From a virus (taxonomy: Duplodnaviria > Heunggongvirae > Uroviricota > Caudoviricetes), in IMG/VR virus record IMGVR_UViG_3300021168_000019, positions 26,672 to 90,671 of that record: a DNA stretch of 64,000 nt; one strand, 5' to 3'. The position numbers and the translations under genes are program-made. Of the stretch, positions 20,870-61,691 are shown one piece after another (positions within the stretch are counted from its first letter, which is position 1; each line of letters starts with the position of its first letter). The notes below the pieces were generated by a model. The model ran no database searches and was not told the DNA's origin. It saw nothing but the letters and a program-made list of their open reading frames with translations.

Positions 20870-20944
20870 TGGTATTCCCTTCAGGATTCGCACCTGAATC
20901 ACCGGTTTCGTAGACCGGAGTCCTATCTGTTGAACGAAAGGAAC
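20870..20944 (-). tRNA. tRNA-Arg(ACG)-like
   Basis: cloverleaf on minus strand: acceptor GTTCCTT/AGGGAAT (two G.U), D GTTC/GGAC, anticodon stem CCGGT/ACCGG loop CTACGAA, T-arm TCAGG-TGCGAAT-CCTGA, CCA encoded; T-loop has G at position 55 (atypical). Confidence 0.55.
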
Positions 20945-20945
20945 A

Positions 20946-21022
20946 TGGCTCCGCAGACAGGATTCGAACCTGTATCGTGGGCATTAACAGTGCCTCGTCT
21001 TGCCAAATTAGACGACCGCGAA
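20946..21022 (-). tRNA. tRNA-Asn(GTT)
   Basis: minus strand: acceptor TTCGCGG/CTGCGGA, D GTCT/AGAC, anticodon loop CTGTTAA, T-arm ACAGG-TTCGAAT-CCTGT, GCCA end. Confidence 0.8.
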
Positions 21023-24975: not shown

Positions 24976-25518
24976 ATGAATCAGAAACTTTGTATCAATT
25001 GTAATAAGATGAAGGATTTGGAAGACTTTGGAATTCGCCGGGCCGAGAAAGATGGACTTCATTACTATTGTAAGAAGTGCCATAAAGAGAAATCGGCTCA
25101 ATACCGTAAAGATAACCCAGATTCTACTAGACAATGTGTATCTAATTATCGCAAGCAGAATCCAGAAAAAGTAAAAGACTCACAACTTCGTACAAAATAC
25201 GGCATATCTCTTGACAAAAGAAACGAAATGATAGATAATCAAGGAGGTAAATGCCTCTTATGTGACGTTGAGTTCTCTGAAAAATGGGATGAGCGTCCGG
25301 GAGTAGACCACGACCATACTTGCTGTCCGGGATCGAGTACATGTGGTAAATGTATTAGAGGAATTCTTTGCCTTAGATGCAACGCTTGGTTAGGGAGATT
25401 TGAAGATAAGCCTGAGATGTTTATCAAGGCTTTGGACTATTTGAGGAATAATGATCATAGACGAAAGGGAATTGAAGCCGTTTGTAGCCAATCCGCCGAT
25501 GAATGTGTTGCGGATTAG
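24976..25518 (+). CDS. HNH homing endonuclease
   Basis: start MNQKL after AGG RBS; CKKCHKEK zinc module; VDHDHTCCPGSSTCGKCIRGILCLRCN. Confidence 0.65.
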   Translation: MNQKLCINCNKMKDLEDFGIRRAEKDGLHYYCKKCHKEKSAQYRKDNPDSTRQCVSNYRKQNPEKVKDSQLRTKYGISLDKRNEMIDNQGGKCLLCDVEFSEKWDERPGVDHDHTCCPGSSTCGKCIRGILCLRCNAWLGRFEDKPEMFIKALDYLRNNDHRRKGIEAVCSQSADECVAD

Positions 25519-28225
25519 TCAAGAATCTGAAGATAAATTACTATCTTTCTTAGATAACACATTTGATTTCGGATTTGACGTTGAAACTACCCCTGTTTCT
25601 GATTTTTATTGGAGACGACTTCGTACAATACAGTTTGGAAACTCAAAAGAACAGTATGTAATTGATCTTCTAGACTACTGTGACAGAGATAGCGAGTTAC
25701 TACATAATTGTCAAGGTGAGTACGGTAAACATCTCTGGAAAGCTCCAAAATTACAAGCACTTTTAGAAAAACTTAAAAAGTATTTGATTTCATCAGATTG
25801 GACCAAAACCGGCGTAAACGTTGGATTTGAGTACGAGTGTCTGTATTGGTTACTAGGGATACGTTCATCTGGTTACTACGATTGCATGTTAGCAGAAAAA
25901 TGCATATACGCAGGCATGGGAGGAAGTGCTTCATTAAAGAATTATGAATACTTTAGTATGTCCTCTATGTTCGAACGCTATTTTGGAATAACCATTGACA
26001 AAGCACTACAGACATCATTTAATTTAGATGACGATCTTTCTGATGCTCAATTCGAATACGCCGCACTTGATACGCGTACTCCATTGGCTATAAAGGCTGT
26101 TCAAAATCTTATAGCAAGTGGAGAGACTATTGAATCTCTAAAAGCCAAGGGAAAGCCGAAGCTGGCAGATTATCTATACTATTTGGACCGGATTATTCTA
26201 GGCGATAATCTTCATGAAGTCATTCAGATTGAAAACGAAGCACTCGGCGCTTTTATTGACATGCATGTGCACGGCGAACGTCTAGACCGTGAAAAGTGGC
26301 TTGCGCGTGTACAGAAGGCCAAGGATAAACTAGTAGCTGTTATTAAAGAGTTGGACAAGATTTTCCTCCCGTGGGTAGGTTCAAAGTTAGATGCCGTAGA
26401 CGATGACACGATTGCCGCACTTGAGATACAGTGGAAGTCGTTGCGTGATAATCCTACTGAGGCCGAGATTGAGCTAAAGCTTGCTATTTCACAGGCTAAC
26501 AGAGAGATTAAAAAGCTAATTAAACAGAACCTCGACATTGGAGAACTGCAACTTGCGCGTGCTGAAGCCGAAATTAAACTCAATCAGCTACAAGATGTAA
26601 GACTAGAGCAGAAAGAAATCATCAAGAAGAAGCATGGCGACCTGAGTAAAAAACGCACAAAGATTAGAAATCTTGCTGCCGACTGTGAAGGTGAAGCTCT
26701 TATTAACTATGGGTCAGATGCACAATTGATGCACTGTCTCAGAGAGAACATTAAGAAGCTTGAAAAGCTAGAAGGCATGGATGACGAGATTCTTGAGAAG
26801 TATGAATCTATTCCTGTCATGAAGCTTATCCGCGAGTACCACGGGTTATCGAAAGATGTGGGAACTTACGGCGATCAATGGGCGACTCAATGGACAACTC
26901 ACCCCTGTAAAGAGGAAGGATGGCTTCACCCCGGCGACGGTAGACTCCACTGCGAGTTCAACCAATATGATGCCGGTACTGGGCGAAGCAGTAGCTCTAA
27001 GCCAAATGCACAAAACCTTCCCCAAGATAAGGAAGTGCGTGGATCGTTCATTGCGGACCCGCCGAACGAGGACATTCGGATTAGTGATTGTTGCGAGGCT
27101 GATACGTATGAAGACGAATGGAACGGTGTAACTTACAATCTTATTTGCTCCAAATGTGAAAAACAATGTACTACACACGCTGAAGAATACGTACTCGTTA
27201 CGGCTGATATGTCCGGTGCCGAGTTGCGTATCATTGCCGATGACGCGAACGATGAGGTATGGATCGGTGCTTTCCGCAGAGGCGAAGACGTTCACTCAGT
27301 AGGAACAGAACTTTTGTACGATGAGAAGTGGCACAAGGCTCAGTATAAAGGACAGGAGTTAAAGAACAAGAAGGGAGAATTAGTACCATATTGGTGCGAG
27401 TATTATAAGCTTCATACTGAGGAAACCGTCAAGAAGAATCCATTGTGCACGGTTGGTGAACCAATGCGCCGAAAGTGCGAGTGTCCTGAGCATAAGCAGA
27501 TGCGTGATAATAACAAGGCCACTAACTTCCTATTGGCGTATGGTGGAGGGCCGGGTGCTCTTGCCGCCGCTATCAAACAGGCTCAGAAGATTGCTAAAGA
27601 ATTAATGGCGCTTCATGAGCATAAGAATCCTCGAATCTGGGCTTATCTGGAGAAATCTGGAAAAGATGCAGCGAGGGACTTCAGGGCATTTGATTTATTC
27701 GGCAGACGTAGATTGTTACCTGAGCCGACAAACGCCCGTGCAAGAGATAACTGCAAGGAGTGGAACGAAAAGCAGCTTAGACTTACTCCTGAAGATGCTG
27801 AGAAGAATGTTGCCATCTTTACGCAAGTGAAGGGCCGCAAGCCTACTCAAAGTGAGATGTTCGATTTAACTCACAGACAGCCTACTCAGGATGAGGTTAG
27901 CCGTAGTTACTTCCAAATGACAAGTCGTGTTTCTCGTCAAGGAAAGAATACGCGCATTCAGGCAACTAATGCAAGTATTGCTAAGAAAGCGATGGGATGC
28001 GGGTATTGTCCCAATGGAAAGCTGTTCTTGTGGCACACACTTCCACTCTACCGCGCGAAGCTAATTAAGTTCGTGCATGACGAATTGGTCGTACAATGTC
28101 CTAAGCAGCATGGTGAGAAGGTAGCCGCTCTCATTGGTGATGCTTTTAAGAGAGCAGCGGCTATTAAGATGAAACGTGTCGTGATGGAATTCGATTATTC
28201 AATCGCAAGTTATTGGAAGAAATAA
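25451..28225 (+). CDS. family A DNA polymerase with 3'-5' exonuclease domain
   Basis: 924 aa; ExoI FDVETT, ExoIII YAALDT, motif A DMSGAELR, motif B RDNNKATNFLLAYGG, motif C VHDELVVQ. Confidence 0.85.
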   Translation: MIIDERELKPFVANPPMNVLRISQESEDKLLSFLDNTFDFGFDVETTPVSDFYWRRLRTIQFGNSKEQYVIDLLDYCDRDSELLHNCQGEYGKHLWKAPKLQALLEKLKKYLISSDWTKTGVNVGFEYECLYWLLGIRSSGYYDCMLAEKCIYAGMGGSASLKNYEYFSMSSMFERYFGITIDKALQTSFNLDDDLSDAQFEYAALDTRTPLAIKAVQNLIASGETIESLKAKGKPKLADYLYYLDRIILGDNLHEVIQIENEALGAFIDMHVHGERLDREKWLARVQKAKDKLVAVIKELDKIFLPWVGSKLDAVDDDTIAALEIQWKSLRDNPTEAEIELKLAISQANREIKKLIKQNLDIGELQLARAEAEIKLNQLQDVRLEQKEIIKKKHGDLSKKRTKIRNLAADCEGEALINYGSDAQLMHCLRENIKKLEKLEGMDDEILEKYESIPVMKLIREYHGLSKDVGTYGDQWATQWTTHPCKEEGWLHPGDGRLHCEFNQYDAGTGRSSSSKPNAQNLPQDKEVRGSFIADPPNEDIRISDCCEADTYEDEWNGVTYNLICSKCEKQCTTHAEEYVLVTADMSGAELRIIADDANDEVWIGAFRRGEDVHSVGTELLYDEKWHKAQYKGQELKNKKGELVPYWCEYYKLHTEETVKKNPLCTVGEPMRRKCECPEHKQMRDNNKATNFLLAYGGGPGALAAAIKQAQKIAKELMALHEHKNPRIWAYLEKSGKDAARDFRAFDLFGRRRLLPEPTNARARDNCKEWNEKQLRLTPEDAEKNVAIFTQVKGRKPTQSEMFDLTHRQPTQDEVSRSYFQMTSRVSRQGKNTRIQATNASIAKKAMGCGYCPNGKLFLWHTLPLYRAKLIKFVHDELVVQCPKQHGEKVAALIGDAFKRAAAIKMKRVVMEFDYSIASYWKK

Positions 28226-29103: not shown

Positions 29104-29340
29104 ATGGCAGGATTTTTTAGTAACCTATTGGGCGCGGCTAAGGCCGATGGTTCCGCGTTCGTAAAGCTAGCAGAAGCCGATTCTTCAGAGCTAGAAGCGA
29201 AGGGCCGGATCGTTGCGCTTGATGCGGCACATTCAGTAAAGACTGAAGTGGTAGACTTTCTCGAAAAGGAAGTTGACCGCGTTCACGCAACTGCTGATGC
29301 ACTTAACGCACGTTTTAAGTCAGTTCTGGGAAAGCTTTAA
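29104..29340 (+). CDS. hypothetical small protein
   Basis: start at internal Met after GAGGAG RBS (29092-29097). Confidence 0.35.
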   Translation: MAGFFSNLLGAAKADGSAFVKLAEADSSELEAKGRIVALDAAHSVKTEVVDFLEKEVDRVHATADALNARFKSVLGKL

Positions 29341-29406
29341 CAAGTACGCACGTATGAAGCGCAGCCGCGCTATCGGACGCGGGTTCGATTCCCGCCATCT
29401 CCACCA
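29341..29406 (+). ncRNA. ssrA: tmRNA (ssrA) acceptor piece of a circularly permuted two-piece tmRNA
   Basis: GGACGCGGGTTCGATTCCCGCCATCTCCACCA 29375-29406 matches canonical tmRNA 3' end (T-arm plus acceptor 3' strand plus CCA); partner 5' strand GGGGATG lies 92 nt downstream. Confidence 0.8.
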
Positions 29407-29497
29407 ATTTTTGTATCAAGCGGTTAGCCGTATGTAAGAACTAAATACGGACTAATGAAGGTAGAGTTGGTTCTTCTGTAGACTCTGCTCTAAAAAT

Positions 29498-29800
29498 GGG
29501 GATGCCAAGGTTTCGACGGTAGATGTTGAATGTTGTTAGCAGACGTGCAGGTAGACGACTAACCTTAACAGCGTAACCTAATAAATGGCGCAACCATTTA
29601 TGACGAGATGATTAACGGACTTCAGGTGGCAACATCTGAGCGCGTTAGTGGCCTCGTGATGGCCTAGTAATAGGACCGGGGTCTGACCCACCTAGCAACA
29701 GAAAGGGTCATAAGACTGAGGCAGAGGGAATACTATCAAACCCAGTATGAGTCGCTACCCTTCAATGGGTGGGACGAGCAAGAGTACGAAACTCGGTAGT
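29498..29800 (+). ncRNA. ssrA: tmRNA coding piece (5' acceptor strand GGGGATG, D-analog TTCGACGG, tag ORF, pseudoknots); 3' boundary approximate
   Basis: GGGGATGCCAAGGTTTCGACGG 29498-29519 resembles canonical tmRNA 5' end; GGGGATG pairs with CATCTCC (one G.U); candidate tag frames end in TAATAA or TAGTAATAG stop clusters; ~470 nt without any ORF. Confidence 0.65.
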
Positions 29801-30761: not shown

Positions 30762-30838
30762 GTGTCGGTAGCATAAATGGCAATGCGCAGGACTGTGACT
30801 CCTTGCATGATGTTGGTTCGAATCCAACCCTTCACTCC
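30762..30838 (+). tRNA. tRNA-His(GTG)-like, possibly degenerate
   Basis: D GCAT/ATGC, anticodon stem CAGGA/TCCTG loop CTGTGAC, T-arm GTTGG-TTCGAAT-CCAAC, CCA; acceptor GTGTCGG/CCTTCAC has two adjacent mismatches. Confidence 0.4.
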
Positions 30839-30924
30839 ATGTCAGACTGGAAAAACAACTGAGGCAAAGAACCTGTTCAGCGGATAACAGAGCCAAGGTA
30901 GTCCGGTCAGTCCGCATAACTTTT

Positions 30925-31012
30925 CGGTGTGTAAAACGGTAGCAGGGAGCCGTCCCGCTTTGGAAGCGGGAGCTTAAGAGCACTGCAAGTTCGAATCTTG
31001 CCACGCCGACCA
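30925..31012 (+). tRNA. atypical type-II-like tRNA (anticodon loop TTTGGAA, reads as UGG)
   Basis: acceptor CGGTGTG/CACGCCG (7 bp with G.U), canonical T-arm GCAAG-TTCGAAT-CTTGC, ACCA end, anticodon stem CCCGC/GCGGG, extra variable hairpin; irregular D-region. Confidence 0.35.
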
Positions 31013-31026
31013 TTTTTAGGAGAAGT

Positions 31027-31209
31027 ATGCCGATATATACGTACCAATGCCCCCGATGCGGGGAGACAGTTGACAAACTCCGCAAGATGAGCGATACTAA
31101 TCCTGTACATTGCACTTGCACGGATACTGAAGATTCAGCGTTCGCCGTGGAGATGCAACAAGTGCCAGCCGTGCCGTCGCCTATGCAATGGGGCTGCAAG
31201 AGGTTCTAA
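31027..31209 (+). CDS. FmdB-like zinc-ribbon protein
   Basis: 60 aa; MPIYTYQCPRCG...HCTC; AGGAGAAG RBS. Confidence 0.5.
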   Translation: MPIYTYQCPRCGETVDKLRKMSDTNPVHCTCTDTEDSAFAVEMQQVPAVPSPMQWGCKRF

Positions 31210-31481
31210 TGGATAATGCATTTGCTAATACATTTGCCGTCGAAACCTTTATCGGCATGAACGATCATCCGTCGATTACGTTTCACTTCGACACGATGAA
31301 CTTCCATGACCCGGATACTAAGTGGTTCTTGGACGAACTGTACTTTGATGGATGCAGAGTGGACTGTGTTCCGATGTCGTTCTATCAGGACATTATCGAT
31401 TTCTGCCAGCACAAGATAAAACAGATTCCACATTTTGACGCAGTAGACGGTGAATTAGAGTGGAATGATGGAAATGGATGA
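31209..31481 (+). CDS. hypothetical protein
   Basis: TAATG overlap with upstream gene. Confidence 0.35.
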   Translation: MDNAFANTFAVETFIGMNDHPSITFHFDTMNFHDPDTKWFLDELYFDGCRVDCVPMSFYQDIIDFCQHKIKQIPHFDAVDGELEWNDGNG

Positions 31482-31580
31482 ACCCCTGATGGCGAAAGCC
31501 GTGTTATCGAAAGATAGCTTGTTGCCGAAAGGCTAGACCGACAAGGGCATCCAAACAACATGATCTAAGGGGTTAGGATC

Positions 31581-32435
31581 ATGCGAAAGGAAGATATGAA
31601 AAGTGTAATGAAGGCGATTGCTGCGGCAATCATAGCAGTTGGACTTATGTCAACAGTTGGATGTACTGTAGCGTCCCCTGATGCTGGTCATCAAGCGGTA
31701 TGGGTGGAAAAGCCAATGCTATTTGGGCATGGCGGAGTTGACCAAACTCCCGTTTCAGCAGGACAAGAATACGGAGCATTTACTAGCAATGCCATTGATG
31801 TAACTATGCAGCCACAACGCATCGACATGGAATTTGATGACATGATGACTAAATCAGGAGTACCTGTTAGTTTTCACGTATTGTTTGTGTTCCGAGTAAC
31901 GGATGCTGTCAGACTCGTTCAAGGATATGGCGTAGATGAAAAGACTGGCGAAGCAAAGGGCGCATGGAATCGTGTAATGGATTCGCAGATTAATCAACTT
32001 GTGCGCGACTCTGTGAAGGCGTATGATATGCAGGATATCGCTATCAGTCAGTCAGCAGTGGATGCTGTGTCAAAGCAAATCAGTACAGGTTCATTTAACA
32101 TTGCCAAGTCTACTGGACTCCCAATCGAATTGCTTTCAGTCAACGTGGGACGTATCCTTCCACCTGATGCTATTAAGCACCAACGTATTGAGACGGCAGC
32201 ACAAGAGCAGCGTGTAATCACCGAGCAGCAGAAGAAGCTTGCTGAAGATGCACGTAAGGCAGCAGAGGAAAGCCGCGCAGCAGCAGACAAGGCTTACCTT
32301 GAAAAGATGCAACTTTCTCCTCAGCAGTACGTTGAGTTGGAACGTATCAAGATGCTGGATAACATTTGCGGAAAGTCAGCATGTACATTCATCCAAGGCA
32401 CGGGAGCGGTTCCTACTCTGGATGTGAAGAAGTAA
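31581..32435 (+). CDS. SPFH/band-7 domain lipoprotein
   Basis: 284 aa; signal peptide with lipobox LMSTVGC; SPFH-like core followed by Ala/Glu-rich coiled coil. Confidence 0.45.
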   Translation: MRKEDMKSVMKAIAAAIIAVGLMSTVGCTVASPDAGHQAVWVEKPMLFGHGGVDQTPVSAGQEYGAFTSNAIDVTMQPQRIDMEFDDMMTKSGVPVSFHVLFVFRVTDAVRLVQGYGVDEKTGEAKGAWNRVMDSQINQLVRDSVKAYDMQDIAISQSAVDAVSKQISTGSFNIAKSTGLPIELLSVNVGRILPPDAIKHQRIETAAQEQRVITEQQKKLAEDARKAAEESRAAADKAYLEKMQLSPQQYVELERIKMLDNICGKSACTFIQGTGAVPTLDVKK

Positions 32436-32615
32436 ATTGCCGGGGCGCATAGTGTGCTAGGAAGTCTCATAAGCTTTCCCTAACTAGGTGCGATACCTAG
32501 CTTCGGCACCAAGGCACAGATACTCTGTTTCAACCGAGGAGTAACTGGTATCCCTATCGGTTGGCACTTCCGAAAGGACGGTAGTACCAACCGGAAAAGG
32601 TACAGGGGCGAACTT

Positions 32616-32690
32616 GCCGGGTTAGCTCAATGGTAGAGCAACTCTTTTACACGGAGAAGGCTACAGGTTCGAGTCCTGTACGCGGCACCA
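32616..32690 (+). tRNA. tRNA-Val(TAC)
   Basis: acceptor GCCGGGT/ACGCGGC (one G.G mismatch), D GCTC-AATGGTA-GAGC, anticodon loop TTTACAC, T-arm ACAGG-TTCGAGT-CCTGT, CCA. Confidence 0.7.
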
Positions 32691-32865
32691 AGCTGTGAAA
32701 TGTTTCACTTGCTTTTAGTAGCACATTGTCAACTAGTAAAAAGCAGGGGTTTGATAACTTCCGTAAAATGTTATCGCGTCGTGGCGCAAACACGCAACTT
32801 ACCGTTAAAAAGCAAACGGGTGACTTTTTGGCCCCAGTTTTCAATAGTAAAACGGGGACTATTTT

Positions 32866-32953
32866 GGGTGTATGGCTGAGAGGCTAAAAGCACCTGACTG
32901 TAAATCAGGCCCTCTTCGGAGGTACGGTAGTTCAAATCTATCTGCACCCACCA
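32866..32953 (+). tRNA. tRNA-Tyr(GTA), type II
   Basis: acceptor GGGTGTA/TGCACCC, anticodon stem CCTGA/TCAGG loop CTGTAAA, long variable arm CCCTCTTCGGAGG, T-arm GGTAG-TTCAAAT-CTATC, ACCA. Confidence 0.75.
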
Positions 32954-32969
32954 AACTTTTAAAGGAACA

Positions 32970-33425
32970 ATGACAATTAAACCCGGACAAATAGCGGCAA
33001 CAAAGAAAAAATCAGAACAACTTAGAATGTCATTTTGTAAAGCTTCTGCTAAGTTGAGAAATAAGTTGTTCTTTTCTATGCTACAGCAATTGAATCGGGA
33101 TATATGTTACAGGTGTGGCACTAGAATACTCAATGAAGACGACTTTAGTGTAGATCATAAGGAACCGTGGTTAGACGCTAGTGCAACTCTGTTCTGGGAT
33201 TTAGACAACATCGCTTTTTCACATCGAAGTTGCAACAGCGCTGCTAGTAGAGTTCCACATAAGATAATCTGCCCAGTTGGTAAAAATTGGTGTAATGTAT
33301 GCAAAGATTTTTTAGATAGTGATAATTTTGGAAACAACAGAACTACATTATCTGGCAAGCAGAGGTACTGCAAAAGTTGTAGAAAGAAGCGTAAAATATC
33401 ATTGTCGTGTATCTCAATTGGATAG
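32970..33425 (+). CDS. HNH endonuclease
   Basis: 151 aa; DFSVDHKEPW...FSHRSCNSAAS, inside tRNA cluster. Confidence 0.6.
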   Translation: MTIKPGQIAATKKKSEQLRMSFCKASAKLRNKLFFSMLQQLNRDICYRCGTRILNEDDFSVDHKEPWLDASATLFWDLDNIAFSHRSCNSAASRVPHKIICPVGKNWCNVCKDFLDSDNFGNNRTTLSGKQRYCKSCRKKRKISLSCISIG

Positions 33426-33487
33426 AGGACTTTCCTTATAAGAGAGCGGTTAGATGTTCGATGCATCTCACGACAGCCAAAGTTTTA

Positions 33488-33575
33488 CCCCGGATGACGT
33501 AATTTAGAAGCCGTAGTGGTCTTAGAAGCCACTGTCCGTAAGGGCGTGGGGGTGCAAGTCCCTCTCCGGGGACCA
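33488..33575 (+). tRNA. tRNA-Leu(TAG)-like, atypical
   Basis: perfect acceptor CCCCGGA/TCCGGGG, anticodon stem GTGGT/GCCAC loop CTTAGAA, long variable arm; D-loop lacks GG and T-loop is TGCAAGT (G at 55). Confidence 0.5.
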
Positions 33576-33577
33576 AT

Positions 33578-33664
33578 GCCGTTATGGTGGAATTGGCAGA
33601 CACAGCGGACTTAAAATCCGCCGCCCGTAAGGGCATGGGGGTTCAAGTCCCTCTCGCGGCACCA
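33578..33664 (+). tRNA. tRNA-Leu(TAA), type II
   Basis: D GTG-GAATTGGCAGA-CAC, anticodon stem GCGGA/TCCGC loop CTTAAAA, variable arm CGCCCGTAAGGGCAT, T-arm GGGGG-TTCAAGT-CCCTC; 3 nt after preceding tRNA. Confidence 0.75.
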
Positions 33665-33800
33665 AGTTAGGGATGCGCCCATCGTAAGGGCATGGAAATG
33701 CTGGCGGCTAAAAGAGGGTCCGATTCCCCTGTTTCTGTTACGAGCATCCCTATTGACAAACAGACCCTACAGTGGTAGTATAGCTGTAGGGTTTTATTTT

Positions 33801-33891
33801 GGAAGGTTGACAGAGCGGTAATGTGCCTGTTTGCTAAACAGAGGCTATCCTGAAAGGGATACGTAGGTTCGATTCTCTACACCTTCCGCCA
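33801..33891 (+). tRNA. tRNA-Ser(GCT), type II
   Basis: perfect acceptor GGAAGGT/ACCTTCC, D ACA-GAGCGGTAA-TGT, anticodon loop TTGCTAA, variable arm TATCC-TGAAA-GGATA; T-loop appears 8 nt (TTCGATTC). Confidence 0.6.
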
Positions 33892-33906
33892 ATTTGAAAG
33901 GAAGCT

Positions 33907-34137
33907 ATGAAAGACTTGTGCAAAGAGTGTACCTGTGACTCACATCATATTAAACTCTTTTTAGTATTTTGCTTTGACTTGACAGATAATCGTGTAGAGT
34001 TAGTTGCTATTTGTCGCACAAGTGAATTGGCAGAGAAATACAAAACAGGTTACAAAAAACTAACAACTCGCACTTGGATAGAAGAACGTTTGACAGACCA
34101 CGCTCTAGGTGCGATTATGTTAGGTAAGAAGTTTTAG
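33907..34137 (+). CDS. hypothetical small protein
   Basis: 76 aa between Ser tRNAs. Confidence 0.3.
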   Translation: MKDLCKECTCDSHHIKLFLVFCFDLTDNRVELVAICRTSELAEKYKTGYKKLTTRTWIEERLTDHALGAIMLGKKF

Positions 34138-34231
34138 GGTGAGTGGCAGAGTGGTTGAATGCACCGGTCTTGAAAACCGGAGAGCCGGTTAAGACCCGGC
34201 TCCGTGGGTTCGAATCCTACCTCACCCGCCA
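34137..34231 (+). tRNA. tRNA-Ser(TGA), type II
   Basis: perfect acceptor GGGTGAG/CTCACCC, anticodon stem CCGGT/ACCGG loop CTTGAAA, long variable arm, T-arm GTGGG-TTCGAAT-CCTAC, GCCA. Confidence 0.8.
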
Positions 34232-48770: not shown

Positions 48771-48846
48771 GCATACGTGGTATAATGGTCATTATCTCTG
48801 CCTCTTAAGCAGAAGGATGTTCGTTCAAATCGAGCCGTATGCACCA
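48771..48846 (+). tRNA. tRNA-Lys(CTT)
   Basis: perfect acceptor GCATACG/CGTATGC, anticodon stem TCTGC/GCAGA loop CTCTTAA, T-arm GTTCG-TTCAAAT-CGAGC, ACCA. Confidence 0.75.
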
Positions 48847-48847
48847 T

Positions 48848-48923
48848 GCACGTTTCGTATAGTGGCTATTATACCGGGCTTTTAACCCGATTGACGTTGG
48901 TTCGAATCCAGCAACGTGCACCA
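48848..48923 (+). tRNA. tRNA-Lys(TTT)-like
   Basis: acceptor GCACGTT/AACGTGC, D GTAT/ATAC, anticodon loop CTTTTAA, T-arm GTTGG-TTCGAAT-CCAGC, ACCA; D/anticodon junction 1 nt short. Confidence 0.6.
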
Positions 48924-48933
48924 AAGGAGAATT

Positions 48934-49164
48934 ATGAAATACCTTATTGCAGGATTAGCGCTTGTTTTGGGAATAATCGTATTAGTTGTAGTCATTGGAC
49001 TACTTCTAGCATTCCCCGTGATGTGGCTTGTAAACTTTCTGTTTGCACCTAGCGCGTTGCTTGTAGTCTTTGGCACTGTCAAGCTTGGCTTTTGGCAGGC
49101 ATACGGGTTGTTGGTACTTGCAGGATTGTTGTTCAAAAGTTCCAGCACAACTGGTAGCAAGTAA
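48934..49164 (+). CDS. small membrane protein (2 TM)
   Basis: start MKYLIAG after AAAGGAGAA; hydrophobic helices. Confidence 0.4.
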   Translation: MKYLIAGLALVLGIIVLVVVIGLLLAFPVMWLVNFLFAPSALLVVFGTVKLGFWQAYGLLVLAGLLFKSSSTTGSK

Positions 49165-49173
49165 CCCCCTATC

Positions 49174-49250
49174 CCCCGGTTAGCTCAACCGGCTAGAGCG
49201 TTCGCTTGATAAGCGAGAGGTTGGTGGTTCAAACCCATCACTGGGGACCA
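49174..49250 (+). tRNA. tRNA-Ile(GAT)
   Basis: acceptor CCCCGGT/ACTGGGG, D GCTC-AACCGGCTA-GAGC, anticodon stem TTCGC/GCGAG loop TTGATAA, T-arm GGTGG-TTCAAAC-CCATC, ACCA. Confidence 0.75.
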
Positions 49251-49259
49251 AAGGAAACT

Positions 49260-49781
49260 ATGCAGCATTTAACTCAAGACGAAATAAAGCAACTGCTCCG
49301 ACAGGTACAGAAGCCGCGCCAAAGGTTGATGCTTAAGGTTGGATTCTTGCATGGACTGCGCGTGTCGGAGCTAATCGGACTGACTAAAGAGGACATCCGT
49401 GACGGCTATGTGAAGTGTCAAAGGCTGAAAGGGTCACTTAAGACCATACAGCCATACGTATCGAGTACGGACCCGGAGCTAGACGAAGCAACCGAACTGA
49501 AAGCGTTATTTGGTACTCTCAAGAGCGGTGAGCGGTTGTTTCCTATGACCCGTTTTGGAGTCTACAAGCTGATGGAACGGGCCGGAGAAAAAGCTGGCCT
49601 ACCTAAGCACAAGGTTCACCCGCACGTCTTAAAGCATTCTTGCGCGATGGCTACAATCAAGGTAGCAGGAATCGAAATGGTACGGCAGTATTTGGGCCAC
49701 AAGACAATCAGTTCAACCGGAGAGTACTTGCGCGAATCTGATGAGACGGCGAGTAAAGCAGTAGCAGGCGCGTTCTCTTGA
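49260..49781 (+). CDS. minimal tyrosine recombinase (catalytic domain only; integrase or invertase)
   Basis: 173 aa from MQHLTQDE after AAGGAA; box I GLRVSELIGL, box II HPHVLKHSCAMATI (K where the HxxR Arg is expected), LGHKTISSTGEYLR with Tyr. Confidence 0.6.
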   Translation: MQHLTQDEIKQLLRQVQKPRQRLMLKVGFLHGLRVSELIGLTKEDIRDGYVKCQRLKGSLKTIQPYVSSTDPELDEATELKALFGTLKSGERLFPMTRFGVYKLMERAGEKAGLPKHKVHPHVLKHSCAMATIKVAGIEMVRQYLGHKTISSTGEYLRESDETASKAVAGAFS

Positions 49782-55580: not shown

Positions 55581-56597
55581 ATGAAATTGTCAGAGTACAT
55601 CGATACCGCGAAGTTACAGCGACATGTTAGCAATGGGCTAGTAACTGCTCGTAGGCACAATACCCTCCCCCTGACTATTTACTGCTACGGCAAGACGGCA
55701 GTCTTTAATCGCGTTTGGGATGATGTGACTACTAAGACTCGTGGATTAATTGTCGATGACTCTGGCGAAATCATTGCCCGTCCTTATGAGAAGTTCTTTT
55801 CTATCGACCAACTGCCGACTCTTGTAGATGTACATGAGATTGATACTCAGTTTGGACCGCCAGTTATCACCGAGAAGGTTAACGGATGTCTTGGAATCTT
55901 CTGGAAGTATGGAATCCATTGGGGCATTGCATCCAAAGGTTCGTTCCATTCACCGCACGCAGAGTTTGCTACGAAGTGGATGGAGCAGCATATTGAAGAG
56001 CATGGGCCGCTTGTATTTCCTGAAGGTTACACGCCAGTCTTTGAAATAGTTTGCCAAGAAGTACAGCCTCATGTTATCAAGTACGCGAAAGATGGCTTAG
56101 TTCTGCTGTCGTTTGTGAAGGTTGAAACTGGCGAAGAGGGTGACCGGGCTGAGGTTGTAAACTACTACGGTAATCTTAACAGTTTGGACAGAGCTTTTAG
56201 CTTTAATGGTACGCTAGACGAAGCTTTGAGTATGGACCGTGAGCATTATGAGGGACTGGTTGCAACGTATAACATCCCCGGACAGGCACCGTTCAAGTTG
56301 AAGATTAAGTTTCCTACATTCCTTAAGAACCGCAAGGCATTCTACGAGGAGCAGCGTTTGAAGGGCAATGACGGCGGCAAGGAAGCGTACAACCGCATTC
56401 ATAGTAAGGCCGCTGAGATAGTCAAGGAAGCACTGATAGTCTGTACCGAGCAAAAGGAATTCGCAATGTTCTTTCAGAAGCCGGAGAACGTATTCTATGC
56501 GCCAGCCTGCTTCGCTATGTTGAACTACGACGAAGACAAAGAGCGCCAGAAGAGAGCAATCTGGCGACTGGTCGATAAGGAGAAGAATGCCAGTTAA
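55581..56597 (+). CDS. Rnl1-family (T4 RNA ligase 1-like) RNA ligase
   Basis: TRGLIVDDSGEIIARPYEKFFSIDQ matches Rnl1 RGIMFE..GE.PVRIASRPMEKFFNLNE from memory; motif I ITEKVNG (KxNG). Confidence 0.55.
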   Translation: MKLSEYIDTAKLQRHVSNGLVTARRHNTLPLTIYCYGKTAVFNRVWDDVTTKTRGLIVDDSGEIIARPYEKFFSIDQLPTLVDVHEIDTQFGPPVITEKVNGCLGIFWKYGIHWGIASKGSFHSPHAEFATKWMEQHIEEHGPLVFPEGYTPVFEIVCQEVQPHVIKYAKDGLVLLSFVKVETGEEGDRAEVVNYYGNLNSLDRAFSFNGTLDEALSMDREHYEGLVATYNIPGQAPFKLKIKFPTFLKNRKAFYEEQRLKGNDGGKEAYNRIHSKAAEIVKEALIVCTEQKEFAMFFQKPENVFYAPACFAMLNYDEDKERQKRAIWRLVDKEKNAS

Positions 56598-61437: not shown

Positions 61438-61691
61438 TGAGCCTATTTGATAAACCACAATCGCTACCTCAGTTTATGGACCCAAAGAATAGCCGTAGCT
61501 ATGAGACTTTGCTCAGTTTTGTTACCTATTGTGAGCAGAATCCCGAGCAAAGGTTCTGGCAGGCATTGCGGAACTGGAGTGGATATCACTACATTCTTAC
61601 CAGTGATGTTCCATTGTACAAAGTCAACAATGAGACTCCACTACGAGATACATTTTATTTGGAAGGAAAAAGGCATGACGAAGAAAGCTAA
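61437..61691 (+). CDS. hypothetical small protein
   Basis: 84 aa. Confidence 0.3.
   Translation: MSLFDKPQSLPQFMDPKNSRSYETLLSFVTYCEQNPEQRFWQALRNWSGYHYILTSDVPLYKVNNETPLRDTFYLEGKRHDEES

What the first reader, a model, noticed from the sequence alone, without database searches (positions are those of the whole stretch)
30762..34231. Dense tRNA cluster interleaved with an HNH gene, containing several structurally aberrant tRNAs
Eight tRNA-like genes lie in 3.5 kb: His-like, a type-II-like UGG, Val, Tyr, Leu-UAG, Leu-UAA, Ser-GCU and Ser-UGA. Elsewhere there are Arg/Asn (20870-21022) and Lys/Lys/Ile (48771-49250). Several deviate from canonical structure. tRNA-His has two acceptor mismatches. Leu(UAG) has G55 in the T-loop and no GG in the D-loop. 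Ser(GCU) has an 8-nt T-loop. The 30925 element has an irregular D region. Arg(ACG) has G55. These may be pseudo-tRNAs, nuclease decoys or sources of tRNA-derived fragments rather than decoders. Leu(UAG) and Leu(UAA) are a tandem duplication 3 nt apart.
Basis: seen in the sequence. Interest (0 to 1): 0.55.

Follow-up and report, generated by a model that had tools for sequence, protein, structure and literature searches.

The report
Phage tRNA island with variant tRNAs
A soil phage carries a cluster of ten tRNA genes, several with odd shapes; comparison with related phages shows that most of the oddities are conserved, compensated designs rather than decay, including a proline tRNA with an extra arm and a swapped contact at the tRNA elbow.

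Summary
Window 30762-34231 contains ten tRNA(-like) genes, not eight. All ten encode CCA, and an HNH gene sits among them. The reported deviations are real. The reading as pseudo-tRNAs or decoys is mostly not supported.

- **UGG element (30925-31012).** It belongs to a family seen here only on viral contigs: proline-like tRNAs with a long variable arm, A37 and a 4-nt acceptor/D connector. Across 8 alleles, 191 of 192 pair cells are paired and 13 of 24 pairs show compensatory changes.
- **G55 with no GG.** In Leu(UAG) and Arg(ACG) this is an A18/G55 swap of the G18/U55 elbow contact. It recurs in viral-contig tRNAs of about 12 amino-acid identities (Fisher p = 3e-25 against a matched U55 control).
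- **Two haplotypes.** They co-circulate in at least 9 independent assemblies. Coding sequences are 94-100% identical, yet same-anticodon tRNA genes are only 67-85% identical with stems preserved. The HNH gene is present in one haplotype only.
- **Codon match.** Anticodons fit A-ending codons the phage uses heavily.

Best reading: functional, structurally variant decoders in a recombining, endonuclease-invaded island, possibly shaped by tRNA-targeting host defences. His, Ser(GCU) and the CAU element remain unresolved.

The parts
29314..29758 (+). Permuted (two-piece) tmRNA gene. It lies directly upstream of the island, outside the finding's coordinates.
   Evidence: ARAGORN calls a tmRNA* with tag ...SGLVMA***. 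Rfam RF04321 scores 74 bits. The sequence is identical in both haplotypes. A counterpart exists in Tunturi_3, L005/L006 and L260.
30762..30839 (+). tRNA-His(GUG), haplotype-A allele. It has U4.U69 and C5.U68 mismatches, a C27.U43 mismatch, no G-1 (position -1 is C) and U73, and it encodes CCA.
   Evidence: (46.3 bits). It is 67% identical to the haplotype-B allele.
30925..31012 (+). Long-variable-arm tRNA-Pro(UGG)-like gene (Pro-V family). Layout: 7-bp acceptor with C1-G72, connector UAAA, a 4-bp D stem abutting the anticodon stem with no nucleotide 26, anticodon loop UUUGGAA (A37), a 3-bp variable stem, canonical T arm, A73 and CCA.
   Evidence: ARAGORN -ps90. Rfam local hit of 26 bits. Eight alleles with 13 of 24 covarying pairs. 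The family model scores it at 108.7 bits, against 34-51 bits for canonical tRNA-Pro.
32439..32511 (+). CAU-anticodon tRNA-like element of 73 nt. It has connector CGC, a D arm reduced to a 3-4-bp stem with a UGUG tetraloop, T loop UGCGAUA, A73 and CCA. It can be drawn as 7/5 or 8/4.
   Evidence: ARAGORN -ps92 only. There is no Rfam hit at E<=10. It is conserved in haplotype B with changes that keep pairing. A canonical Met(CAU) sits at the syntenic position in L265.
32512..32615 (+). Spacer of about 100 nt present only in haplotype A.
   Evidence: Absent from L057 and L138. It forms a modest hairpin with z = -2.15.
32616..32690 (+). tRNA-Val(UAC). It is near-canonical, with one G5.G68 mismatch.
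   Evidence: (64.6 bits). It is 72% identical to the B allele, with 4 compensatory pair changes by my hand count.
32866..32953 (+). tRNA-Tyr(GUA), a canonical class II tRNA.
   Evidence: (57.8 bits). The B allele is 94 nt, irregular, and scores only 28.2 bits.
32970..33425 (+). Free-standing HNH endonuclease gene. It is present only in haplotype A, and its last 23 nt overlap tRNA-Ile(UAU).
   Evidence: Pfam PF01844 at 28.8 bits and PHROG HNH at 1.7e-20. It is absent between Tyr and Ile in L057 and L138.
   Evidence: 47.4 bits. It is 97% identical between haplotypes.
33488..33575 (+). tRNA-Leu(UAG), haplotype-A allele. It has C1-G72, an A18-G19 D loop (UAAUUUAGAAGC) and T loop UGCAAGU (G55). 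All stems are perfect.
   Evidence: (18.9 bits). I count 8 compensatory pair changes against the B allele. A homolog of the same lineage in L265 has GG with U55.
33578..33664 (+). tRNA-Leu(UAA), a paralog of Leu(UAG) lying 2 nt downstream. It has a U6.C67 mismatch.
   Evidence: (48.6 bits). It is 90% identical to the haplotype-B Leu(UAG) gene.
33665..33760 (+). Possible decayed third Leu copy. It carries the variable-arm motif CCCATCGTAAGGGCATGG and a degenerate T arm.
   Evidence: Alignment to the Leu genes. The fold is not significant, z = -1.7. It is identical in both haplotypes and is not called as a tRNA at -ps85.
33801..33891 (+). tRNA-Ser(GCU) with one extra nucleotide in the T arm, drawn either as an 8-nt loop or as a bulged U.
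   Evidence: (31.6 bits). It is 100% identical in both haplotypes. The T-arm sequence gives no match in IMG/VR.
34137..34231 (+). tRNA-Ser(UGA), canonical.
   Evidence: (61 bits).
20870..20944 (-). tRNA-Arg(ACG), a second A18/G55 tRNA. Its D loop is AACAGAUA and its T loop is UGCGAAU.
   Evidence: (50.2 bits). It is identical in 5 further contigs, and one variant carries anticodon GCG.

Best explanation
The region is the main tRNA island of an uncultivated soil phage, and most of its odd-looking members are working tRNAs with conserved alternative architectures.

**Context.** The phage has 45.5% G+C. Its closest cultured relative is the Acidobacteriota phage Tunturi_3. The island holds ten genes, sits next to a two-piece tmRNA gene, and five more tRNA genes lie elsewhere in the window.

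**Function.** The tRNAs act mainly as decoders that supplement the host pool. They cover A-ending and other codons the AT-richer phage uses heavily: CUA, UUA, GUA, AUA, UCA and CCA.

**The variant architectures.**
- One is a tRNA-Pro(UGG) family seen here only on viral contigs, with an inserted variable arm, a 4-nt acceptor/D connector, no nucleotide 26, and A37 in place of G37.
- The other is a set of tRNAs in which the G18.U55 elbow contact is replaced by A18.G55, while G19-C56 is kept.

**Turnover.** The island is a recombination hotspot. Related phages carry different alleles of the same-anticodon genes, and these alleles assort independently. A free-standing HNH homing endonuclease has invaded one haplotype between Tyr and Ile.

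**Shown versus inferred.**
- Shown: the genes, their structures, the covariation, the haplotypes and the codon usage.
- Inferred: that they are aminoacylated and used in translation.
- More speculative: that the variant architectures and the allele turnover are driven by escape from tRNA-targeting host defences.
For: - **Pro-V family.** Across 8 alleles from 8 contigs, 191 of 192 pair cells are paired, 13 of 24 pairs show compensatory double changes, and only 5 of 40 unpaired columns vary. A family covariance model scores members at 108-117 bits, canonical tRNA-Pro at 34-51 bits, and the best non-Pro tRNA at 41 bits. The proline determinants G72 (6 of 8 alleles), A73, G35 and G36 are kept (identity set from PMC9976931).
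- **A18/G55.** With the same T-arm sequence, 92 of 94 unique U55 tRNAs have GG in the D loop, while 35 of 39 G55 tRNAs have AG and no GG (Fisher p = 3e-25). The G55 tRNAs span about 12 amino-acid identities, and 31 of 39 encode CCA. Within the window's own Leu(UAG) lineage, the L265 homolog and the B allele have GG with U55.
- **Allele comparison.** Coding sequences and the tmRNA are 94-100% identical between haplotypes. The His, Pro, CAU, Val, Tyr and Leu(UAG) genes are 67-85% identical. By my hand count from the structures, double compensatory changes number 8 in Leu(UAG), 6 in Leu(UAA) and 4 in Val.
- **Allele assortment.** Affinities to L260 and L265 differ gene by gene.
- **Persistence.** The haplotype-A sequences are identical in at least 6 further independent assemblies. 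Arg(ACG) is identical in 5 more, and one variant changes only the wobble base, ACG to GCG.
- **tRNA hallmarks.** All members encode CCA, and discriminators fit identity except in His.
- **Codon usage.** CTA is 20% of Leu (26% in the structural block), GTA 40% of Val, TTA 13%, ATA 17%, TCA 21% and CCA 24%. GC3 is 43%. The contigs retrieved with the island's Band_7 lipoprotein have a median of 58% G+C and no such island.
- **Context.** The window encodes two RNA ligases (PF09511 and PF09414). The HNH gene is present in one haplotype only.
- **Precedents.** Phage tRNAs are proposed to be insensitive to host tRNases (PMC10264068), and a homing endonuclease sits in a phage tRNA cluster that counters a tRNA-cleaving defence (PMC13096335, PMC2330249).
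Against: - There is no expression, processing or aminoacylation data. The host is unknown, so the codon argument rests on relatives' G+C content rather than host codon usage.
- His (haplotype A) has two adjacent acceptor mismatches, U73 and no G-1. These features would defeat a standard bacterial HisRS.
- Ser(GCU) and the CAU element show no informative variation, or too little, to demonstrate selection.
- Covariation shows selection on fold, not on translation. A structured decoy or another tRNA-like RNA would also covary.
- Some phages carry Pro-V next to canonical Pro(UGG), Pro(CGG) and Pro(GGG) genes. This argues that Pro-V does something a normal tRNA-Pro does not.
- A37 removes the m1G37 site that normally protects tRNA-Pro from +1 frameshifting and aids prolylation (PMC9976931).
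- The only other known bacterial tRNAs with deviant elbows, the Staphylococcus non-proteinogenic tRNA-Gly species, are not used mainly for translation (PMC4574755).
Confidence: 0.6

Rival explanations
1. The variants are structured but non-translational tRNA-like RNAs. They would act as decoys or sponges for tRNA-targeting nucleases or modification enzymes, as regulators, or as sources of fragments. Selection would then keep the fold and the anticodon loop, but the RNAs would not deliver amino acids.
For: - Covariation proves only a selected fold.
- Pro-V coexists with canonical Pro tRNAs of the same anticodon in L261, L262, L264 and L266. That suggests a non-redundant role.
- The anticodon loop is invariant across alleles, including the unusual A37.
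- The two RNA ligases indicate conflict over tRNA integrity.
- Irregular Acidobacteria-associated tRNAs were charged but not used in translation in E. coli (PMC5389517).
Against: - A decoy does not need a conserved proline-type acceptor end, A73 and an encoded CCA, yet all are invariant or covary.
- In the window, Pro-V is the only Pro tRNA seen, while CCN codons are common.
- A18/G55 tRNAs span about 12 identities with matching discriminators. That looks like a general design for decoders.
- The Arg variant that differs only at the wobble base points to tuning of decoding.
Confidence: 0.17
2. The low-scoring members are decaying pseudo-tRNAs left over from duplication and relaxed selection in a fast-evolving island.
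For: - His-A has two mismatches and a wrong discriminator.
- Ser(GCU) has an extra T-arm nucleotide found nowhere else in IMG/VR.
- The CAU element is invisible to Rfam's tRNA model.
- A probable true remnant of a third Leu copy lies at 33665-33760.
- Each haplotype has its own low scorers. In B these are Tyr at 28.2 bits and His at 26.4 bits.
Against: - For Pro-V, Leu(UAG) and Arg(ACG), decay is excluded by compensatory changes, a tertiary-pair swap and recurrence in many phages.
- The sequences are identical across at least 6 assemblies.
- CCA is retained in every member.
- The genuine remnant at 33665-33760 shows what decay looks like here. It has lost its acceptor stem and T loop, and no tRNA is called there.
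Confidence: 0.13
3. Pro-V is a recoding or mistranslating tRNA. Its class-II-like variable arm and A73 would let LeuRS (or SerRS) charge it, so that CCN codons are read as Leu or Ser. This would parallel allo-tRNAs of Acidobacteria.
For: - It has a long variable arm and A73, and LeuRS and SerRS do not read the anticodon (established knowledge).
- Allo-tRNAs with non-Ser anticodons insert Ser in E. coli (PMC5389517, PMC7609411).
- Pro-V coexists with canonical Pro tRNAs.
Against: - The acceptor stem, T arm and anticodon are those of tRNA-Pro.
- The variable stem is only 3 bp, and the discriminator is A73 rather than the G73 of Ser tRNAs.
- The structure is 7/5, not 8/4 or 9/3.
- Proteome-wide replacement of Pro by Leu would be harmful, and no compensating depletion of Pro codons is seen.
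Confidence: 0.05
4. The oddities are artefacts of metagenome assembly, such as chimeras or sequencing errors in repeats.
For: The window is metagenomic, and tRNA genes are short repeats that are prone to mis-assembly.
Against: - Identical sequences appear in ENA, JGI and Logan assemblies from different samples.
- Two clean haplotypes are each seen at least twice.
Confidence: 0.01

Closest known systems
Phage tRNA gene clusters with embedded free-standing homing endonucleases (T4 segB in its tRNA region, PMC2330249 and PMC13096335; from memory, the T5 tRNA region also holds HNH-type endonucleases)
   Same: - A dense tRNA array is interrupted by small ORFs and a homing-type endonuclease gene.
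- The endonuclease is present in one genome and absent at the same spot in a close relative.
- The neighbouring tRNA alleles are diverged.
- There is a link to tRNA-targeting defence.
   Different: - The enzyme here is HNH, not GIY-YIG.
- Its cleavage site and activity are untested.
- Allele replacement extends to tRNA genes 2 kb from the endonuclease, while the intervening coding sequences stay 98-99% identical.
Canonical bacterial tRNA-Pro(UGG)
   Same: - The acceptor stem is CGGNGNG/...CCG with C1-G72 and A73.
- The anticodon loop UUUGG-A is shared except at position 37.
- The T arm GCAAG-UUCGAAU-CUUGC is identical to many phage tRNA-Pro genes.
- Canonical tRNA-Pro is the nearest class in the family model.
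   Different: - The variable region is 13-14 nt with a 3-bp stem, instead of 5 nt.
- The acceptor/D connector is 4 nt (UAAA) instead of 2.
- There is no nucleotide 26.
- Position 37 is A, not G, so there is no m1G37 site.
- In all eight alleles the UAAA connector, the absence of nucleotide 26 and A37 are invariant, and the variable arm is present though its sequence and length vary.
Allo-tRNAs and irregular tRNA polycistrons of Acidobacteria and soil metatranscriptomes (Mukai et al. 2017, PMC5389517; review PMC7609411)
   Same: - The ecological setting is the same: acidobacterial, forest and peat soil.
- A long variable arm occurs on tRNAs with non-Ser, non-Leu, non-Tyr anticodons.
- There are extra nucleotides between the acceptor and D stems.
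- That paper also reports phage tRNA-His without G-1 and with A73 or U73.
   Different: - Allo-tRNAs are defined by an 8/4 or 9/3 acceptor/T configuration and a long D stem with a tetraloop.
- Pro-V is 7/5, with a covarying 49-65 pair and a 10-nt D loop containing GGG.
- Only the CAU element could be drawn as 8/4 with a D tetraloop, and it lacks the long variable arm.
Non-proteinogenic tRNA-Gly of Staphylococcus (PMC4574755)
   Same: These are bacterial-type tRNAs that depart from the G18-G19 / U55-C56 elbow consensus.
   Different: - Those tRNAs lose all four elbow nucleotides (U18U19 or C18U19) and serve cell-wall synthesis.
- The phage class keeps G19-C56 and swaps only the 18/55 contact to A18/G55.
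- The phage class occurs across about 12 identities.
Phage tRNAs proposed or shown to resist host tRNA nucleases (PMC10264068, PMC11555353, PMC11464382)
   Same: Phage copies of tRNAs differ from the host's in ways thought to preserve function while removing nuclease recognition.
   Different: - The described cases involve anticodon-loop changes.
- Here the changes are in the elbow, variable arm and connector, and resistance is untested.

Membership tests
tRNA (Rfam RF00005, canonical cloverleaf) | Score at or above the curated gathering threshold of 29 bits | tested here: inconclusive
   - Met by His (46.3), Val (64.6), Tyr (57.8), Ile-UAU (47.4), Leu-UAA (48.6), Ser-GCU (31.6), Ser-UGA (61) and Arg (50.2).
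- Not met by Pro-V (26, local hit only) or Leu-UAG (18.9).
- The CAU element has no hit at E<=10.
tRNA (canonical cloverleaf) | 7-bp acceptor stem, 5-bp T stem, U33, a 7-nt anticodon loop, a discriminator and 3' CCA | tested here: met
   ARAGORN structures show these features for all ten island members. Exceptions are two mismatches in His, one each in Val and Leu-UAA, an extra T-arm nucleotide in Ser-GCU, and an ambiguous 7/5 versus 8/4 drawing for the CAU element.
tRNA (canonical tertiary elbow) | G18-G19 in the D loop and U54-U55-C56 in the T loop | tested here: not met
   - Leu(UAG) and Arg(ACG) have A18-G19 and U54-G55-C56.
- The CAU element has no 18/19 equivalents.
- The swap is a covariation, not a loss.
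tRNA-Pro (bacterial identity set: G72, A73, G35, G36, G37; PMC9976931) | C1-G72, A73, G35 and G36 | tested here: met
   In Pro-V, A73, G35 and G36 are invariant in all 8 alleles. C1-G72 is present in 6, including the window, and A1-U72 in 2.
tRNA-Pro (bacterial identity set) | G37 (m1G37) and a short (class I) variable region | tested here: not met
   A37 is invariant, and the variable arm is 13-14 nt.
tRNA-Pro | Charged with proline by ProRS | not testable with these tools
   This needs an aminoacylation assay.
Allo-tRNA (Mukai 2017) | 12-bp acceptor branch in an 8/4 or 9/3 configuration | tested here: not met
   - Pro-V is 7/5. Its outermost T-stem pair (alignment columns 61 and 77) is G-C in 7 alleles and A-U in 1, and position 8 (U) cannot pair with the base following the T stem.
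- The CAU element is ambiguous, because C8 or C49 can pair with G65.
Allo-tRNA (Mukai 2017) | Long variable arm together with a long D stem and tetraloop | tested here: not met
   - Pro-V has the long variable arm but a 10-nt D loop.
- The CAU element has a D tetraloop (UGUG) but a 5-6-nt variable region.
Class II tRNA (Leu/Ser/Tyr type) | Variable arm longer than 10 nt with a stem; anticodon for Leu, Ser or Tyr | tested here: inconclusive
   The arm criterion is met: a 3-bp stem whose middle pair shows three pair types (C-G, A-U, G-C). The anticodon is Pro.
Free-standing HNH homing endonuclease | HNH catalytic domain | tested here: met
   PF01844 at 28.8 bits against a cutoff of 21.4, and PHROG HNH families down to 1.7e-20.
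Free-standing HNH homing endonuclease | Presence/absence polymorphism at the same site between close relatives | tested here: met
   The gene is present in the window and in L137, L139, L141, L142 and L144. It is absent in L057/L140 and L138, where Tyr and Ile are 5 nt apart.
Free-standing HNH homing endonuclease | Site-specific cleavage of the endonuclease-less allele, with co-conversion | not testable with these tools
   This needs a cleavage assay or co-infection crosses.
Permuted tmRNA (RF04321) | Score above gathering threshold, and a tag reading frame ending in stop codons | tested here: met
   74 bits against 47. The ARAGORN tag ends ...LVMA followed by TAG TAA TAG.

The most novel reading that the evidence does not exclude
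Phages maintain alternative tRNA architectures that cellular genomes, as far as I could search, do not use. One is a class-II-like tRNA-Pro family with A37 (UGG and CGG members). The other is an A18.G55 elbow used across many amino-acid identities. Under this reading they are fully functional decoders whose altered elbow, variable arm or position 37 makes them invisible to host tRNA-targeting immune nucleases or independent of host modification enzymes (TrmD, TruB, TrmH). Their genes would then be exchanged between phages as anti-defence cassettes, helped by homing endonucleases.
Probability: 0.25. Interest if true: 0.85.

Novelty: new variant of a known kind. Interest (0 to 1): 0.62.

Why it matters
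- **Annotation.** Standard tools miss or under-score these genes. ARAGORN at default settings and Rfam's threshold both miss the Pro-V gene here, and the Tunturi_3 record annotates neither its tRNAs nor its tmRNA. Phage tRNA repertoires are therefore undercounted, and conserved variants risk being written off as pseudogenes.
- **tRNA structure.** U55 and G18 are treated as universal in the reviews I could search (PMC7912444, PMC4810234). A clean natural A18/G55 covariation across about 12 identities gives a testable alternative elbow. The same holds for a conserved class-II-like tRNA-Pro lacking the m1G37 site. Both bear on RNase P, TruB, TrmD, EF-Tu and ribosome recognition.
- **Phage-host conflict.** Many newly described defences cleave tRNAs at sites beyond the anticodon, including the variable loop, anticodon arm and 3' tail. 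Hypervariable same-anticodon tRNA alleles in otherwise near-identical phages, next to a homing endonuclease and RNA ligases, are what an arms race over tRNA integrity would leave behind. This makes the idea directly testable.

Tried and rejected
- **Nucleotide search of the island against 50,697 phage records.** Only short tRNA-core matches came back, with no close relative.
- **Relatives found through the island's Band_7 lipoprotein.** Four IMG/VR loci and 79 of 80 metagenome loci (55-72% aa identity) have no tRNA island. They were useful only as a G+C contrast.
- **ARAGORN at -ps90 or -ps85.** These settings are too permissive, giving calls inside coding sequence without CCA. I therefore relied on -ps92, where only two extra calls appear in the window, both in island gaps.
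- **Search of 185,579 species genomes for the Pro-V 5' motif.** It returned two hits, both non-tRNA chance matches.
- **Exact-protein look-up of the 60-aa ORF 31027-31209.** It is not on record.
- **Folding of the four spacers.** None is convincingly structured, with z from +0.5 to -2.2. The promoter and terminator scan shows no enrichment.
- **Ser(GCU) T-arm pattern in IMG/VR.** No match was found, so there is no comparative test of the extra nucleotide.
- **His as an 8/4 tRNA or with G-1.** I first considered this and rejected it. Neither register pairs, and position -1 is C in haplotype A and U in haplotype B.
- **The CAU element as a third A18/G55 case.** I first counted it as one and withdrew that. 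Its AG/GG difference lies in a short D stem closed by a UGUG tetraloop, not at positions 18-19.
- **Streptomyces phage tRNAs that resemble Leu(UAG)-A.** They proved canonical, with GG and U55.
- **Literature.** Searches for G55/A18 in phage tRNAs and for long-variable-arm tRNA-Pro found nothing relevant. The supplement of Mukai et al. with the irregular tRNA sequences is not held, so identity with their polycistrons could not be checked.

Full report
**1. What is in the sequence**

ARAGORN at default settings finds eight tRNA genes between 30762 and 34231, all on the + strand. They are His(gtg), Val(tac), Tyr(gta), Ile(tat), Leu(tag), Leu(taa), Ser(gct) and Ser(tga). Five more lie elsewhere: Arg(acg) and Asn(gtt) at 20870-21022 on the - strand, and Lys(ctt), Lys(ttt) and Ile(gat) at 48771-49250.

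It is called tRNA-Pro(tgg) at -ps90. At -ps92 exactly two extra calls appear in the whole 64-kb window. Both are on the + strand and both lie in gaps of the island: the Pro element, and a 73-nt CAU-anticodon element at 32439-32511. Ten shuffled windows gave 0.3 calls each on average.

The island therefore holds ten tRNA(-like) genes. Every one of the ten is followed by an encoded CCA.

| tRNA | Rfam tRNA score (bits; gathering score 29) |
|---|---|
| Val | 64.6 |
| Ser-UGA | 61 |
| Tyr | 57.8 |
| Arg | 50.2 |
| Leu-UAA | 48.6 |
| Ile-UAU | 47.4 |
| His | 46.3 |
| Ser-GCU | 31.6 |
| Pro element | 26 (local hit only) |
| Leu-UAG | 18.9 |
| CAU element | no hit at E<=10 |

- His has U4.U69 and C5.U68 mismatches. 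It also has no G-1 and has U73.
- Leu(UAG) has T loop UGCAAGU and no GG in the D loop.
- Arg(ACG) has T loop UGCGAAU.
- Ser(GCU) has one surplus nucleotide in the T arm.
- The Pro element has an irregular D region.

The two Leu genes are 2 nt apart, not 3. ORF 32970-33425 is an HNH endonuclease (Pfam PF01844 at 28.8 bits against a cutoff of 21.4; PHROG 1.7e-20). Its last 23 nt run into tRNA-Ile(UAU).

**2. Where the window comes from**

No phage record is similar at the nucleotide level. The DNA polymerase at 25451-28225 is 50.8% identical to that of Tunturiibacter phage Tunturi_3, a 97.6-kb podovirus of Acidobacteriota from tundra soil (PMC11924767).

The window has 45.5% G+C and GC3 of 43%. 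Tunturi_3 has 51%. The contigs retrieved with the island's Band_7 lipoprotein have a median of 58%.

Just upstream of the island, at 29314-29758, lies a permuted (two-piece) tmRNA gene (RF04321, 74 bits). Tunturi_3 has one too, though its record does not annotate it. The window also encodes two RNA ligases, PF09511 at 55581-56597 and PF09414 at 61501-62886.

**3. Two haplotypes and hypervariable tRNA genes**

A metagenome scan with the lipoprotein 31581-32435 returned 80 loci. Only one, L057, carries the island. Exact look-up of the 76-aa ORF 33907-34137 added nine contigs from ENA, JGI and Logan samples. Together they define two haplotypes.
- **Type A** comprises the window and L137, L139, L141, L142, L143 and L144. 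The tRNA sequences are identical throughout, and the HNH gene is present.
- **Type B** comprises L057 (the same contig as L140) and L138. It lacks the HNH gene, so Tyr and Ile are 5 nt apart. It also lacks about 100 nt at 32512-32615.

| Feature, type A versus type B | Identity |
|---|---|
| Coding sequences | 94-100% |
| tmRNA | 100% |
| Several spacers | 97-100% |
| tRNA-His | 67% |
| tRNA-Pro element | 85% |
| CAU element | 79% |
| tRNA-Val | 72% |
| tRNA-Tyr | 72% |
| tRNA-Leu(UAG) | 70% |
| tRNA-Ile(UAU) | 97% |
| tRNA-Ser(GCU) | 100% |
| tRNA-Ser(UGA) | 100% |

The window's Leu(UAA) is 90% identical to type B's Leu(UAG) gene. A paralog has therefore switched anticodon.

The diverged alleles keep their stems. 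Counting by hand from the structures, pairs changed on both sides number 8 in Leu(UAG) (3 in the acceptor, 3 in the anticodon stem, 2 in the D stem, none broken), 6 in Leu(UAA) and 4 in Val.

Each haplotype has its own low scorers. In type B, Leu(UAG) is canonical at 56.6 bits, while Tyr (28.2) and His (26.4) fall below threshold.

Two further viral contigs of 89 and 99 kb, L260 and L265, have 46% G+C and share the order tmRNA, His, Pro element..., Leu(UAG), Ser(UGA). Allele affinities differ gene by gene.
- The L265 His is closest to type B (0.81).
- The L265 Tyr (0.81) and Leu(UAG) (0.76) are closest to type A.
- Type B's Leu(UAG) is closest to that of L260 (0.80).

The alleles therefore assort independently. 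They look like cassettes exchanged by recombination, not like products of local hypermutation or decay.

**4. The UGG element is a member of a conserved family seen here only on viral contigs**

Its T arm and 3' acceptor strand (GCAAGTTCGAATCTTGCC.C.CCGACCA) occur in 40 IMG/VR loci. Most of the other 39 are canonical tRNA-Pro genes, and two (L017, L024) are truncated at the 5' end. One, L011, is a true homolog. A scan with the conserved 5' motif TAAAWCGGTAGNNGGGAGCCG found nine viral loci. In one genome for each of 185,579 bacterial and archaeal species it found only two chance matches, neither tRNA-like.

There are eight distinct alleles: the window, L057, L011, L260, L261, L263, L265 and L267. 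On a hand-corrected alignment, 191 of 192 pair cells are standard pairs. Thirteen of 24 pairs show compensatory double changes, spread over all five stems. The middle pair of the variable stem is C-G, A-U or G-C. Only 5 of 40 unpaired columns vary.

Invariant features are:
- the 4-nt connector UAAA
- the D loop UAGNNGGGAG
- the absence of nucleotide 26
- the anticodon loop UUUGGAA (anticodon UGG, with A37)
- the CACU tract after the variable stem
- A73 and CCA

C1-G72 is present in six alleles and A1-U72 in two.

A covariance model of the family gives a clear ranking.

| Class | Score (bits) |
|---|---|
| Family members | 108-117 |
| Second long-arm type with anticodon CGG, also A37 | 65-71 |
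| Canonical tRNA-Pro | 34-51 |
| Best non-Pro tRNA | 41 |

The element is thus a derivative of tRNA-Pro. It retains the bacterial ProRS determinants G72, A73, G35 and G36 (identity set from PMC9976931). It lacks G37 and has gained a variable arm.

It is not an allo-tRNA in the sense of Mukai et al. (PMC5389517). It is 7/5, not 8/4 or 9/3, and its D loop is long.

In L261, L262, L264 and L266 the long-arm Pro(UGG) and Pro(CGG) genes sit beside canonical Pro tRNAs (GGG, UGG and CGG in L261/L262; CGG in L264/L266). The long-arm form is therefore probably not a mere substitute. In the window it is the only Pro tRNA seen.

A separate long-arm Pro(UGG) type with G37 occurs in ten large contigs of another sample. 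Long-arm Lys(UUU) and Thr(UGU) genes also turned up.

**5. "G55 and no GG" is a tertiary covariation**

Leu(UAG)-A and Arg(ACG) have AG where G18-G19 should be (UAAUUUAGAAGC and AACAGAUA), together with U54-G55-C56. Type B's Leu(UAG) has GG with U55. So does the L265 homolog of the A lineage, which has the same CCCCGGA acceptor.

A scan of IMG/VR for the Leu T arm with G55 (GGGGGTGCAAGTCCCYC) gave 99 loci.
- Thirty-nine unique tRNAs were called at the hit.
- They span about 12 identities: Leu (five anticodons), Met/CAU, Thr, Lys, Tyr, Gly, Val, Arg, Pro, Asn and Trp.
- Thirty-one of them end in CCA.
- Thirty-five have AG and no GG in the D loop as drawn. By eye, 38 of 39 have AG at positions 18-19.

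The matched control used the same T arm with U55. There, 92 of 94 unique tRNAs have GG. Fisher's exact test gives p = 3e-25.

In an unselected set of 148 unique tRNAs from other fetched viral loci:
- 133 are GG with U55.
- Nine lack GG but keep U55. Most of these have U56, which suggests an A19-U56 version of the G19-C56 pair.
- Two have G55, one of which lacks GG: the tRNA-Ala of L011, the contig that also carries a Pro-V allele.

The G18.U55 contact is therefore replaced as a unit by A18.G55 in a minority of phage tRNAs, while G19-C56 is kept. Whether A18.G55 is geometrically equivalent is an inference I could not test. Two reviews of the T loop and elbow do not mention such variants, and my literature searches found none. 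The nearest bacterial precedent is the non-proteinogenic tRNA-Gly of Staphylococcus. Those tRNAs lose all four elbow nucleotides and serve cell-wall synthesis (PMC4574755), so they are a different case.

Arg(ACG) is identical in five more contigs. One variant (L275) differs only at the wobble base, ACG to GCG.

**6. The members that remain unexplained**

- **His (type A).** It has two adjacent acceptor mismatches, U73 and no G-1. Type B and most relatives have C73 but also lack an encoded G-1; only L265 has G at -1. Phage tRNA-His without G-1 and with A73 or U73 has been reported (PMC5389517).
- **Ser(GCU).** It has one surplus T-arm nucleotide. I favour a bulged U, which keeps G53-C61 and a 7-nt loop, over an 8-nt loop, but nothing tests this. 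The gene is identical in both haplotypes, and the T-arm sequence is absent from IMG/VR.
- **The CAU element.** It has a 3-nt connector, a D arm reduced to a short stem with a UGUG tetraloop, and a T loop that differs between haplotypes (UGCGAUA versus CUCGUUU). It can be drawn as 7/5 or 8/4. L265 has a canonical-looking Met(CAU) at the same position. I first counted this element as a third A18/G55 case and withdrew that.
- **Region 33665-33760.** It looks like a genuine remnant of a third Leu copy. It shows what decay looks like in this island.

**7. Function**

The anticodon set fits the phage's codon usage.

| Codon | Share of its amino acid |
|---|---|
| CTA | 20% of Leu (26% in the structural block) |
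| TTA | 13% of Leu |
| GTA | 40% of Val |
| ATA | 17% of Ile |
| TCA | 21% of Ser |
| AGT | 24% of Ser |
| CCA | 24% of Pro |

Such codons are expected to be rare in a host of about 57-60% G+C. That host figure is from memory and the host is not identified, so the argument is indirect.

Four lines of evidence make functional decoders the best reading, with confidence of about 0.6: the retained CCA ends, discriminators that fit identity, stem covariation, and the elbow swap.

Why the architectures differ is open. Published work shows that phage tRNAs can replace host tRNAs cut by defence nucleases. It also shows that such nucleases attack the anticodon loop, the variable loop, the anticodon arm and the 3' tail (PMC10264068, PMC11555353, PMC11464382, PMC13096335, PMC12445682, PMC12851939). 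In addition, a homing endonuclease in the T4/T6 tRNA cluster drives preferential inheritance and amplification of tRNA genes (PMC2330249, PMC13096335).

The hypervariable alleles, the HNH insertion and the two RNA ligases fit that picture. The link is nonetheless inferred, not shown. Covariation alone cannot exclude a structured decoy.

**8. Verdict**

The pseudo-tRNA or decoy reading is disfavoured for the best-documented oddities and remains open for three members.

A phage tRNA cluster with a homing endonuclease is a known kind of feature. What appears new, as far as I could search, is:
- the long-arm A37 tRNA-Pro family
- the A18/G55 elbow class
- allele-level hypervariability confined to the tRNA genes

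Noticed in passing
window 29314-29758 (+); L002 38172-38396 (-); L005 9376-9757; L260 11292-11890 (-): A permuted (two-piece) tmRNA gene lies just upstream of the tRNA island (RF04321, 74 bits; tag ends ...SGLVMA followed by three stop codons). It is 100% identical in both haplotypes. Related phages, including the cultured Tunturi_3, carry one as well, although the Tunturi_3 record and paper do not mention it.
   Followed up: partly
window 55581-56597 (+) and 61501-62886 (+): The window encodes two RNA ligase genes, one T4 Rnl1-type (PF09511) and one with PF09414 plus an OB fold. Tunturi_3 likewise has two RNA ligases, an RNA 2'-phosphotransferase and a kinase. This suggests a capacity for tRNA repair.
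   Followed up: partly
L275 979-1053 compared with window 20870-20944 (-): One natural variant of the A18/G55 tRNA-Arg differs from the window only at the wobble base. Its anticodon is GCG instead of ACG.
   Followed up: no
L261 2399-2488 (-), L262 4677-4766 (+), L264 1079-1168 (-), L266 3139-3228 (-): A second long-variable-arm proline type has anticodon CGG and also A37. It is 90 nt long and sits next to the UGG type. Canonical Pro tRNAs lie on the same contigs: GGG, UGG and CGG in L261/L262, and CGG in L264/L266.
   Followed up: partly
L047-L056 (IMG/VR sample 3300045988), e.g. L047 3755-3848: Ten large viral contigs (108-178 kb) carry a different long-variable-arm tRNA-Pro(UGG). It has G37, a variable region of about 20 nt, and no encoded CCA.
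   Followed up: no
L181, L196, L204 (Lys UUU, 88-90 nt); L207 (Thr UGU, 86 nt): These viral-contig tRNAs have class I identities (Lys, Thr) yet carry long variable arms, a 3-nt acceptor/D connector (Lys) and the A18/G55 elbow.
   Followed up: no
L028 (Arg, Trp), L050/L055 (Glu), L053 (Asn), L011 (Arg UCU): Several phage tRNAs lack GG in the D loop and have T loops of the form UUUNAAU (U56). This suggests an A19-U56 version of the G19-C56 elbow pair.
   Followed up: no
window 33665-33760 (+): This region is a probable decayed third copy of the Leu tRNA. It keeps the variable-arm motif, has a degenerate T arm, and is enclosed by a 7-bp GGGATGC/GCATCCC stem. It is identical in both haplotypes.
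   Followed up: partly
window 33753-33781 and 34090-34118 (+): Promoter-like sites lie 20 nt upstream of Ser(GCU) and Ser(UGA). They read TTGACA, then a 17-nt spacer with TG before the second hexamer, then TAGTAT or GATTAT. The scan as a whole shows no enrichment over shuffles.
   Followed up: no
window 49260-49781 (+): A short (173-aa) phage-integrase-family ORF starts 10 nt after tRNA-Ile(GAU).
   Followed up: no
L002 37750-37824 (-) and 37994-38051 (-): Tunturi_3 has a tRNA with an 8-nt anticodon loop, which ARAGORN reads as anticodon 'gaaa' (54.6 bits in Rfam). A partial tRNA hit lies next to its tmRNA. The paper lists one of the phage's tRNAs as 'unknown'.
   Followed up: no
L259 1013-1086 (Streptomyces phage Kenrey): This gene is annotated as tRNA-Leu(gag), but it is only 74 nt long with a 4-nt variable region. 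It is a Leu anticodon on a class I-shaped tRNA.
   Followed up: no
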